From the NCBI RefSeq assembly GCF_003018255.1, contig NZ_CP027440.1: 64,000 nt of DNA; one strand, given 5' to 3'. The translations under genes were made by a program, and so were the position numbers. Each line of letters starts with the position of its first letter. Within the stretch, counting starts at the first letter, position 1. Of this stretch, positions 15,749-16,419 are shown piece after piece. The notes beneath the pieces are model-generated. The model was given only the letters and a program-made list of their open reading frames with translations, was not told the DNA's origin and made no database searches. This DNA is from Escherichia coli (lineage in GTDB: Bacteria > Pseudomonadota > Gammaproteobacteria > Enterobacterales > Enterobacteriaceae).

Positions 15749-16086
15749 GCGACCTTATTATCCATGCGCGGTATTGTCGCCGTATTCCCGTATTAACAGA
15801 GACCGCAGCCCGACAGGGAGACTCCTCTGCGCGAGTGTGCGGGGATAATCAAAAACGATACACACCGGGGTTTACCGCGTTAACGGAGCGCGGCGTTGTC
15901 CCCTCATGGTCGCTGGTCCGGTGCGATGGTGGAAGAAACCGGACGATGTGTTACCTCGCAAGACCTGTTATGTCATGTGTCTGATTTGTGATTTAAGTCG
16001 GATAATTGTCGTTGCCATTAAGCAGAGGATTGATGGCCGACAGGGTGGCATTGTTAGAATAAGACTTATTCTTATCTGTGCCGGGA

Positions 16087-16419
16087 ATGAAAATGAAAAG
16101 AAATCTTCCGTTAATTATTTTGTTGTCTTCTCTGGTTATGGGCTGTACGCAACATAAAACAGATATGCCCCGACAGTTGGTTAAGGCATTACCACAATAT
16201 CCGGCCTATGCAGCGGCAAATTATATAAAGGGACGGGTTGATGTGAAGTTTGATATTGGTGCTGATGGTACTGTCACCCGAATTGAGTTTATCCGTTCAG
16301 AGCCGCACCATCTGTTTGATGAGCAGGTTGTAAAGGCGATGGCAAAATGGCGATTTGAGAAGGACAGGCCGCGTAAAGGCGTGAAGAAAACGTTTATCTT
16401 TAGTCCTTCTGCACCCTGA
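16087..16419 (+). CDS. lipoprotein with TonB C-terminal-like domain
   Basis: MKMKRNLPLIILLSSLVMGC lipoprotein signal; mature part LPQYPAYAAANYIKGRVDVKFDIGADGTVTRIEFIRSEP..VVKAMAKWRFE aligns with remembered TonB C-terminus; own promoter-like TTGATG-19-TAGAAT upstream. Confidence 0.75.
   Translation: MKMKRNLPLIILLSSLVMGCTQHKTDMPRQLVKALPQYPAYAAANYIKGRVDVKFDIGADGTVTRIEFIRSEPHHLFDEQVVKAMAKWRFEKDRPRKGVKKTFIFSPSAP

What the first reader, a model, noticed from the sequence alone, without database searches (positions are those of the whole stretch)
16030..16419. Lipoprotein with TonB C-terminal domain at the bor position after Rz/Rz1
The mature region (LPQYPAYAAANYIKGRVDVKFDIGADGTVTRIEFIRSEP..VVKAMAKWRFE) matches the TonB C-terminal domain as I remember it (PQYPARAQALRIEGQVKVKFDV..DGRVDNVQIL..REVKNAMRRWRYE). 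It has its own promoter-like element (TTGATG-19-TAGAAT) and a lipoprotein signal peptide. It occupies the slot after Rz/Rz1 where lambda carries bor. A TonB-CTD mimic could compete for TonB boxes of outer-membrane transporters and so block TonB-dependent phages (T1/phi80-like) or group B colicins. Paired with the TolA-III lipoprotein, this points to a coordinated envelope energy-transducer decoy strategy.
Basis: partly seen in the sequence, partly recalled or inferred. Interest (0 to 1): 0.7.

Follow-up and report, generated by a model that had tools for sequence, protein, structure and literature searches.

The report
Prophage lipoprotein carrying a TonB domain
A lambdoid E. coli prophage encodes a small lipoprotein, predicted to sit in the outer membrane, that consists of little more than the receptor-docking end of the host energy-transducer TonB; the gene is common and already labelled "TonB family protein", but I found no test of its function, and the best guess is a decoy that blocks TonB-dependent phages and colicins.

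Summary
The gene is real. The CDS is 16093-16419 (+), 108 aa, with an alternative ATG at 16087. It has a signal peptide with a lipobox (LVMG|C, Thr at +2), a tether of about 9 residues, and a TonB C-terminal domain. The domain is supported by Pfam (E 6.7e-15), by TIGR01352 (56.5 bits against a 27.1 cutoff), and by an AF2 model at 0.7 A rmsd from E. coli TonB CTD. It lacks TonB's membrane anchor and proline-rich spacer, so it cannot transduce energy.

It is prophage cargo lying between Rz/Rz1 and the terminase genes. It occurs in 1615 of 5426 complete E. coli genomes, in Stx1a phages and in phage 21. It is under purifying selection (dN/dS about 0.12).

- **"Bor slot":** only loosely true. Phage 21 and a sampled prophage of the common allele carry bor/iss and this gene side by side.
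- **Promoter:** the motif is no better than chance and its -35 is not conserved.
- **TolA pairing:** the TolA-III lipoprotein is real (5424-5852), but the two genes share this arrangement in only about 11 genomes.

The TonB-box decoy mechanism is plausible. AF2 makes the FhuA Ton box a strand exactly as in the TonB control, and overexpressed periplasmic TonB fragments are reported to inhibit import. It remains untested, and I found no paper on it.

The parts
16093..16419 (+). CDS of the TonB-CTD lipoprotein (108 aa plus stop). An alternative in-frame ATG at 16087 would give 110 aa.
   Evidence: ORF listing and sequence. RefSeq annotates the same span as 'TonB family protein' WP_000828070.1. 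dN/dS is 0.12 against the phage-21-type allele.
16083..16086 (+). Shine-Dalgarno-like GGGA, 6 nt upstream of the ATG at 16093
   Evidence: Read directly from the sequence. The other allele has AGGAAT at the same place and a single ATG.
16093..16146 (+). Signal peptide with lipobox LVMG|C. The Cys18 codon is 16144-16146. Thr at +2 (not Asp) predicts sorting to the outer membrane.
   Evidence: Sequence. The Cys is conserved in the aligned lipoprotein relatives at 33-89% identity. The outer-membrane assignment follows the E. coli '+2 rule' and is an inference.
16147..16167 (+). Short tether (TQHKTDM) between the lipidated Cys and the start of the region that aligns to TonB
   Evidence: In the AF2 model the first three mature residues have pLDDT below 50 and the first strand begins at mature residue 10. 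The PDB alignment begins at P28 of the 110-aa form.
16168..16404 (+). TonB C-terminal domain, equivalent to E. coli TonB residues about 153-231, including the PQYP motif and the beta3 edge strand KKTFIFS
   Evidence: Pfam PF03544 E 6.7e-15. TIGR01352 56.5 bits. phmmer to 1U07, 2GRX and 2GSK. Foldseek rmsd 0.7-1.0 A.
16030..16060 (+). Promoter-like string TTGATG-N19-TAGAAT, with TGn before the -10. Significance is doubtful.
   Evidence: Present in the sequence. Not reported by the sigma-70 scan, whose count is no higher than in shuffles. The -35 is not conserved, and the -10 reads TGTCAGAAT in the other allele.
15042..15500 (+). Context: Rz-type i-spanin with embedded Rz1 o-spanin (ORF 15253-15459, [22 protein letters not shown]...)
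   Evidence: ORFs. RefSeq 'lysis protein' at the matching position.
5424..5852 (+). Second, independent envelope-mimic moron: a lipoprotein (LTTG|C) with a TolA domain III. It lies between the tRNA genes and the nanS-p-type esterase, which is the slot Stx phages use for stx.
   Evidence: Translation. NCBIfam TolA TIGR02794 75.9 bits against a cutoff of 59.45. Pfam TolA C-terminal E 1.5e-22. Annotation context.

Best explanation
The gene encodes a lipoprotein that is probably anchored in the inner leaflet of the outer membrane. Its only folded part is a TonB C-terminal domain held on a tether of about 9 residues, directly beneath the outer-membrane transporters.

I propose it acts as a dead-end decoy. 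It pairs by beta-strand addition with the Ton boxes of TonB-dependent transporters (FhuA, FepA, CirA, BtuB and others) and of group B colicins. This competes with the real, energised TonB.

The expected result is that TonB-dependent entry is damped in cells expressing it. That covers T1/phi80-type phages, colicins B, D, Ia and M, and TonB-dependent microcins. It would be a superinfection-exclusion or colicin-tolerance moron.

Shown here: the gene, the lipobox, the fold, the absence of energy-coupling parts, the prophage location, purifying selection and wide distribution.
Inferred: outer-membrane localisation, Ton-box binding, the phenotype, and expression in lysogens.
For: 1. The domain and fold are those of TonB CTD. 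Six of the seven core positions I recall as functionally important in TonB CTD are identical, and Y215 is replaced by F (alignments).
2. It scores only 50-73 bits against full-length TonB equivalog models whose cutoffs are 265-448 bits, and it matches only their C-terminal ends. There is no TM anchor and no Pro-rich spacer, so it can bind but cannot pull.
3. The lipobox Cys is conserved down to about 33% identity, with non-Asp residues at +2. The AF2 model shows order from about mature residue 10, so the domain is held within a few nanometres of the membrane it is anchored in.
4. In an AF2 fusion with FhuA residues 1-20, exactly the Ton box (DTITVT) becomes a strand at pLDDT about 73-77. The control with E. 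coli TonB CTD behaves the same way.
5. Ton boxes bind TonB beta3 by backbone beta-augmentation, and they are present in all TBDTs and in TonB-dependent colicins (PMC11658791).
6. Laboratory precedent: overexpressed periplasmic TonB domain inhibits TBDT import (Howard 2001), and a Ton-box pentapeptide reduces colicin killing and phi80 infection (Tuckman and Osburne 1992). Both are as cited in PMC9841981.
7. It behaves like a selected accessory gene. dN/dS is 0.12 between alleles with pS 0.65. GC is 0.44 against 0.57 in the neighbouring late genes. It is present in 30% of complete E. coli genomes. It is always found between the lysis and packaging genes in the phage contexts I examined. A plasmid relative lies next to Qat defence genes.
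Against: - There is no experimental evidence of any kind.
- A general Ton-box decoy would also depress siderophore, haem and B12 uptake, which is a real cost for a lysogen.
- TonB residues I recall as contacting Ton-box partners are not kept. Q160 becomes L (Y in the other allele) and R166 becomes Y. This region is the most variable part between alleles.
- No convincing promoter or terminator flanks the gene. It has the same orientation as the late operon, so it may be made only late in lytic growth, when exclusion has less value.
Pairing with beta3 specifically is therefore assumed. AF2 has also seen 2GRX and 2GSK in training.
- Related short TonB_C lipoproteins also sit in ordinary chromosomal contexts, so the ancestral role need not be anti-phage.
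Confidence: 0.5

Rival explanations
1. TonB trap. The tethered domain pairs with the C-terminal domain of the host's own TonB rather than with Ton boxes, holding TonB unproductively at the outer membrane. The phenotype would be the same (TonB-dependent import falls), but the target differs and far fewer copies would be needed.
For: The aromatic core positions are conserved. From memory, these give TonB-TonB disulfide crosslinks in vivo. Several TonB CTD fragments in the PDB hit list crystallised as dimers (1IHR, 1U07). From memory, TonB is much scarcer than its transporters.
Against: AF2 readily placed a Ton box on the domain. The physiological relevance of CTD dimers is debated.
Confidence: 0.12
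2. Receptor-specific exclusion protein. Like Cor or Llp, it binds the periplasmic face of one particular transporter (perhaps the carrier phage's own receptor) and locks it allosterically. It would not be a general decoy.
For: Cor and Llp are outer-membrane lipoproteins that act on FhuA from the periplasm. The Q160/R166-equivalent surface differs between alleles, as expected if alleles track different targets.
Against: The fold is TonB CTD, not Llp; no Llp or Cor structure appeared among the PDB matches. The receptor of this prophage could not be inferred from its J protein. The same allele rides in prophages with different tail modules.
Confidence: 0.1
3. Host-fitness or virulence moron unrelated to import blocking, such as outer-membrane stabilisation or serum resistance in the manner of its frequent neighbour Bor/Iss.
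For: It sits beside bor/iss in phage 21 and in a sampled prophage of the common allele. It is carried by Stx1a phages. Chromosomal relatives exist.
Against: There is no similarity to Bor (Pfam reports only TonB_C and a weak TonB_2 match). The tether is too short to reach peptidoglycan (inferred). Nothing in the TonB CTD fold suggests such a role.
Confidence: 0.1
4. Late-expressed lysis or egress accessory, as the PHROG label 'Rz-like spanin' implies.
For: It has the same orientation as the late operon, lies directly after the lysis cassette in every phage context, and has no detectable own promoter or terminator. It matches phrog_1267, labelled 'Rz-like spanin'.
Against: A complete Rz/Rz1 pair is present upstream. 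O-spanins are short, proline-rich and non-globular (established knowledge), whereas this protein is a globular TonB_C domain. The label most likely comes from position plus a lipobox.
Confidence: 0.08
5. Decaying fragment of a captured tonB gene with no function, as the older labels 'partial tonB-like' and 'TonB fragment' suggest.
For: Database names of that kind.
Against: dN/dS is 0.12. A lipoprotein signal has been acquired and conserved. Identity is only 36-39% to E. coli TonB CTD. The reading frame is intact in 1610 genomes.
Confidence: 0.03

Closest known systems
C-terminal domain of E. coli TonB (PDB 1U07; complexes 2GRX with FhuA and 2GSK with BtuB)
   Same: Same Pfam family and same fold (rmsd 0.7-1.0 A over 74-78 residues). 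It keeps the PxYP motif, the aromatic core and the beta3 edge strand that receives the Ton box. AF2 places the FhuA Ton box as a strand with both proteins.
   Different: Only 36-39% identical. It has no N-terminal membrane anchor and no proline-rich spacer, and it fails every full-length TonB model cutoff. It is anchored by a lipid, predicted at the outer membrane, instead of by a helix in the inner membrane. The Q160 and R166 equivalents are changed.
Recombinant periplasmic TonB fragments used as dominant-negative inhibitors (Howard et al. 2001, as cited in PMC9841981)
   Same: A TonB C-terminal domain delivered to the periplasm without its energy-coupling part. It is reported to inhibit import through TonB-dependent transporters.
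   Different: Those are laboratory constructs, soluble and overexpressed. This is a natural, phage-borne, lipid-tethered version. Its effect has not been measured.
Cor (phi80, N15) and Llp (T5) superinfection-exclusion lipoproteins
   Same: Small phage-encoded outer-membrane lipoproteins that act from the periplasmic side on a TonB-dependent transporter.
   Different: Unrelated fold. Cor and Llp bind FhuA specifically and block adsorption allosterically. A TonB-domain decoy would act on the shared Ton box and hit energy coupling, so it should spare TonB-independent phages such as T5.
Bor/Iss lipoprotein of lambda and other lambdoid phages
   Same: A lipoprotein moron in the region between Rz/Rz1 and cos or terminase.
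   Different: No sequence relationship. Bor is on the opposite strand and coexists with the TonB-like gene in phage 21 and in a sampled E. coli prophage.
Prophage TolA-domain-III lipoprotein (this window, 5424-5852; phrog_5772)
   Same: The same design principle. A lipobox is fused to the partner-binding end of an envelope force transducer with a related fold. TolA III and TonB CTD both bind partners by beta-augmentation (PMC7391070).
   Different: Different family and a different moron slot (Q-to-holin). Its distribution is largely independent: 896 against 1615 genomes, and a shared arrangement in only 11.

Membership tests
TonB_C domain family (Pfam PF03544 / TIGR01352) | Profile match above the curated threshold | tested here: met
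   TIGR01352 56.5 bits against a cutoff of 27.1. Pfam E 6.7e-15 over residues 36-103.
TonB_C domain family (Pfam PF03544 / TIGR01352) | Alpha/beta fold of TonB CTD with a free beta3 edge strand | tested here: met
   AF2 domain pLDDT 94-98 over most of the domain (89 in its last 10-residue block). Foldseek against 1U07, 2GSK_B and 2GRX_C gives rmsd 0.7-1.0 A and TMt 0.83-0.91.
TonB energy transducer (NCBIfam PRK10819 equivalogs) | Whole-protein score above the equivalog cutoff | tested here: not met
   50-73 bits against cutoffs of 265-448. Only the last ~65-85 positions of each model are matched.
TonB energy transducer (NCBIfam PRK10819 equivalogs) | N-terminal inner-membrane anchor that couples to ExbB/ExbD, and a proline-rich periplasm-spanning spacer | tested here: not met
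   The 108-aa sequence has only a cleavable lipoprotein signal and a ~9-residue tether before the domain.
Bacterial lipoproteins (Lgt/LspA substrates) | Basic n-region, hydrophobic h-region and a lipobox ending in an invariant Cys | tested here: met
   MKRNLPLIILLSSLVMG|C. Met at -2 is unusual but allowed by the PROSITE PS51257-type pattern (from memory). The Cys is conserved across the aligned lipoprotein relatives at 33-89% identity.
Bacterial lipoproteins (Lgt/LspA substrates) | Actual lipidation and outer-membrane sorting | not testable with these tools
   Thr, Ser or Ala at +2 (never Asp) predicts Lol-dependent outer-membrane sorting. This is an inference only.
Cor/Llp-type exclusion lipoproteins | Llp/Cor fold | tested here: not met
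   The significant PDB matches (E <= 0.001) are all TonB-family C-terminal domains, followed by weaker TonB-family, HasB and TolA III matches. No Llp or Cor entry appeared.
Cor/Llp-type exclusion lipoproteins | Protects the cell against phages that use a TonB-dependent transporter | not testable with these tools
   Needs plaque assays.
Rz1-type o-spanin (label of phrog_1267) | Short proline-rich lipoprotein encoded within or next to its i-spanin partner and needed for outer-membrane disruption | tested here: not met
   A separate intact Rz/Rz1 pair lies at 15042-15500. This protein is a globular TonB_C domain that starts 593 bp after Rz ends.
Bor/Iss | Sequence homology to lambda Bor | tested here: not met
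   Pfam reports only TonB_C and a weak TonB_2 match. Bor/Iss is a distinct neighbouring gene in phage 21 and in AR_0058.
Known anti-phage defence systems (PADLOC-DB 2.0) | Match to any defence-protein model | tested here: not met
   No family at E <= 1 for this protein or for the TolA-like one.

The most novel reading that the evidence does not exclude
Temperate phages, and some plasmids, carry lipid-tethered copies of the partner-binding ends of the cell's two envelope force transducers: TonB CTD here and TolA III at 5424-5852. These would act as molecular decoys that intercept the Ton and Tol boxes on which incoming phages, colicins and microcins depend. That would be a class of broad-spectrum entry defence working by mimicry of the energy transducer itself. 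It is carried by about 30% of E. coli genomes and is absent from the one defence catalogue I checked (PADLOC-DB 2.0).
Probability: 0.4. Interest if true: 0.75.

Novelty: new variant of a known kind. Interest (0 to 1): 0.55.

Why it matters
If the decoy mechanism holds, a gene present in roughly a third of E. coli genomes would change sensitivity to TonB-dependent phages, colicins, microcins and siderophore-linked antibiotics such as albomycin-type compounds. Carriers include Stx1a-converting phages and the classical phage 21.

That would bear on three things: choice of phages for therapy, competition among gut E. coli, and the idea of TonB as a drug target. It would also add a new principle to phage exclusion. 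Instead of modifying one receptor, the phage would copy the host's energy-coupling domain and park it at the outer membrane.

The experiment is cheap and decisive: clone the gene, then spot phages and colicins.

Tried and rejected
- **Promoter and terminator scan** of 15400-16900. It found no + strand promoter and no terminator after the gene, so the "own promoter" claim is not upheld.
- **Upstream alignment between alleles.** The -35 is not conserved.
- **Structured RNA upstream.** No Rfam match at E <= 1. Folding z-scores were -0.67 and -0.32. Rejected.
- **Receptor of the carrier phage from the J C-terminus.** The closest match is phage 1720a-02 at 98%, and other phages are at about 64%. 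I know of no characterised receptor for any of them, so no inference was possible.
- **PADLOC.** No hit.
- **BFVD viral structure library.** No match at E <= 0.001.
- **Obligate pairing with the TolA-like gene.** Rejected.
- **Recent capture of the host tonB.** Unlikely. Identity is only 36-39% to E. coli TonB CTD but 44% to a chromosomal short lipoprotein relative.
- **Literature.** Ten full-text searches found no paper on this protein's function. The Howard 2001 paper could not be opened and is cited second-hand.

Full report
**What is there.** The + strand ORF ending at 16419 has in-frame ATGs at 16087 and 16093. A GGGA at 16083-16086 lies 6 nt before the second ATG. RefSeq annotates exactly 16093-16419 in a 99.8%-identical E. 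coli chromosome as "TonB family protein" WP_000828070.1. The phage-21-type allele has a single ATG at that position. I therefore take the product to be 108 aa: MKRNLPLIILLSSLVMG|CTQHKTDMPRQLVKALPQYP...

**Domain and fold.**
- Pfam gives TonB_C at E 6.7e-15.
- NCBIfam TIGR01352 (tonB_Cterm) scores 56.5 bits against a cutoff of 27.1.
- The full-length TonB equivalog models score only 50-73 bits against cutoffs of 265-448, and they match only with their C-terminal ends.
- phmmer against PDB sequences finds E. coli and Salmonella TonB CTD at E about 3-6e-16 over residues 28-106.
- An AF2 model has pLDDT of 94-98 over most of the domain (89 in its last 10-residue block). It superposes on 1U07, 2GSK chain B and 2GRX chain C at 0.7-1.0 A rmsd, with TM-scores of 0.83-0.91 normalised on the target.

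The protein has no inner-membrane anchor and no proline-rich spacer, so it is a TonB-domain protein and not a TonB.

**Lipoprotein signal.** The lipobox Cys is kept in every branch of the family I looked at:
- the 89-99% E. coli group (LVMGC|T/S);
- the ~71% group that includes phage 21 (LAVGC|S, LSVGC|A);
- Klebsiella (LLSAC|S);
- short relatives at 33-46% identity from metagenomes.

The residue after the Cys is never Asp. By the E. coli sorting rule this predicts the outer membrane, which is an inference. In the model the chain is ordered from about mature residue 10. The domain therefore hangs a few nanometres below the inner leaflet, where Ton boxes emerge. This is also an inference.

**Genomic setting.** The window is a lambdoid prophage. 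The gene order is Q, tRNAs, a TolA-like gene, nanS-p-type esterase, holin, lysozyme, antirepressor, Rz/Rz1 (15042-15500), a 74-codon ORF, this gene, ylcI/ynfO on the minus strand, HNH, terminase, head and tail genes.

The gene occupies the same region between the lysis cassette and the packaging genes, in the late-operon orientation, in every phage context I examined:
- phage 21;
- a Klebsiella phage;
- two metagenomic phage contigs;
- two other E. coli prophages.

In phage 21 and in strain AR_0058, bor/iss lies on the opposite strand between Rz and this gene. So it is a neighbour of bor, not a substitute for it.

More distant short relatives occur elsewhere. One is on a plasmid next to Qat defence genes. 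Two are in ordinary chromosomal neighbourhoods.

**Distribution and selection.**
- blastn finds the gene in 1615 of 5426 complete E. coli genomes: 413 at 95% identity or more, and 1201 at about 74%.
- tblastn finds it in 15 phage records, including Stx1a-converting phages, JLK-2012, phage 21, ev017 and Perceval.
- Between the two alleles pS is 0.65 and pN is 0.165, giving dN/dS of about 0.12. Synonymous sites are near saturation, so the ratio is approximate.
- GC is 0.44 against 0.57 in the adjacent late genes.

This is a maintained accessory gene, not a tonB remnant. The older labels "Partial tonB-like membrane protein", "TonB fragment" and the PHROG label "Rz-like spanin" are misleading.

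**Promoter claim.** TTGATG-N19-TAGAAT is present at 16030-16060 and has a TGn before the -10. However:
- the spacer is longer than the 16-18 nt the scan accepts;
- the scan finds no + strand site, and its total (2) is no higher than in shuffles (2.6);
- the -35 aligns to CAGTCT in the other allele, and the -10 becomes CAGAAT;
- no terminator follows the gene.

Whether the gene is expressed in lysogens or only from the late promoter remains open.

**TolA pairing claim.** The ORF at 5424-5852 is indeed a lipoprotein (LTTG|C) with a TolA domain III. Pfam gives E 1.5e-22, and TIGR02794 gives 75.9 bits against a cutoff of 59.45. The two genes are nevertheless not a unit:
- none of the 15 phage records with the TonB-like gene has a TolA-like gene;
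- the only phage record with a TolA-like gene (mEp460_ev081) lacks the TonB-like gene;
- three sampled prophages have one gene without the other;
- the TolA-like gene is in 896 genomes;
- only 11 genomes share at least 80% of window 5300-16500.

They look like independent morons built on the same design.

**Mechanism.** Ton boxes of all TonB-dependent transporters and of TonB-dependent colicins bind TonB by adding a strand to beta3 of the C-terminal domain (PMC11658791). I fused the mature protein through a 30-residue Gly-Ser linker to FhuA residues 1-20. AF2 then made exactly DTITVT a beta-strand at pLDDT about 73-77. The identical construct with E. coli TonB CTD gave the same result, with the same residues and pLDDT about 74-77.

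This shows only that nothing in the phage protein disfavours the canonical interaction. There was no negative control, coordinates could not be inspected, and AF2 was trained on 2GRX and 2GSK.

Independent precedent comes from the literature. Overexpressed periplasmic TonB domain inhibits import through TBDTs, and a Ton-box pentapeptide lowers colicin killing and phi80 infection (Howard 2001 and Tuckman and Osburne 1992, both as cited in PMC9841981).

The most economical reading puts these points together: the lipid anchor, the short tether and the lack of any energy-coupling part. On that reading the protein is an outer-membrane-tethered, dead-end competitor for Ton boxes. I give this about 0.5.

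Points against:
- the cost to iron and B12 uptake;
- non-conservation of the Q160 and R166 equivalents (L or Y, and Y);
- the unresolved timing of expression;
- the existence of chromosomal relatives.

The rivals, with the tests that would separate them, are given in the rival-explanations section. They are a TonB trap, an Llp-like receptor-specific lock, a Bor-like fitness factor, a late lysis accessory and a dead remnant.

**Comparison with the known, and novelty.** The sequence feature itself is already in the databases under generic names. A 2024 review of superinfection exclusion lists only Cor for FhuA-type receptors. PADLOC has no model for the protein. BFVD has no structural match at E <= 0.001. 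Ten full-text searches found no functional study, although subscription-journal papers are largely outside that library.

The protein works most like the laboratory dominant-negative TonB fragments. Ecologically it most resembles Cor and Llp, but it belongs to neither family. I rate it a new variant of a known kind, namely phage lipoproteins that disable TonB-dependent entry routes.

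Noticed in passing
window 5424-5852 (+): A 142-aa lipoprotein (LTTG|C) with a TolA domain III. It sits between the tRNA-Ile/Arg genes and the nanS-p-type esterase, the slot where Stx phages carry stx. It is found in 896 of 5426 E. coli genomes but in only one phage record (mEp460_ev081). PHROG 5772 gives 'unknown function'.
   Followed up: partly
window 31235-32398 (+): A full-length OmpC-family porin gene (NF007841, 504.9 bits against a cutoff of 484) is inserted inside the tail module, between a tail protein gene and minor tail protein L. 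This is a third envelope-related cargo gene in the same prophage.
   Followed up: no
window ~15765-15955: A non-coding block upstream of the TonB-like gene is markedly better conserved between the two alleles (few mismatches in the alignment), although the coding sequences are only 74% identical. There is no Rfam hit and no unusual folding energy. It could be a mosaic recombination boundary or an unrecognised regulatory element.
   Followed up: partly
window 15524-15748 (+): A 74-codon ORF between Rz and the TonB-like gene matches only positions 100-172 of the 291-position phrog_2571. It is probably a gene fragment.
   Followed up: no
window 11999-14804: The lysis cassette is interrupted. A 263-aa ORF follows the holin and begins like a DUF1327/YdfR protein (RefSeq calls the equivalent a truncated pseudogene). 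A 233-aa ORF lies on the opposite strand (12539-13240). An antirepressor gene (14109-14804) sits between the lysozyme gene and Rz.
   Followed up: no
L015 5001-5390 (plasmid-like metagenomic contig): A relative at 35% identity, a TonB_C lipoprotein (P0062), lies right after ParM/StbA-StbB partition genes and about 1.5 kb (one DUF6694 gene) upstream of QatA/QatB-type defence genes.
   Followed up: no
L007 6001-6402; L013 2329-2670: Short TonB_C lipoproteins at 34-44% identity (P0040, P0046) sit in non-phage chromosomal neighbourhoods (ahpC/ahpF, GST, GGDEF; Usp, acetyltransferase). Two further short relatives (P0124, P0146) appear to have ordinary, non-lipoprotein signal peptides. A wider family of exported TonB_C-only proteins seems to exist; I did not look for any description of it.
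   Followed up: partly
phrog_1267 (database label): The PHROG family that this protein matches end to end (E 1.9e-42) is annotated 'Rz-like spanin'. The members seen here are globular TonB_C lipoproteins encoded alongside complete spanin pairs, so the label looks wrong.
   Followed up: partly
L018 15115-15921 (E. coli ATCC 43896, Qin-like prophage): Two TolA-domain genes lie in tandem between Q and the holin gene. One is a pseudogene and the other is a 'TolA C-terminal domain-containing protein'. This suggests turnover or duplication of this moron.
   Followed up: no
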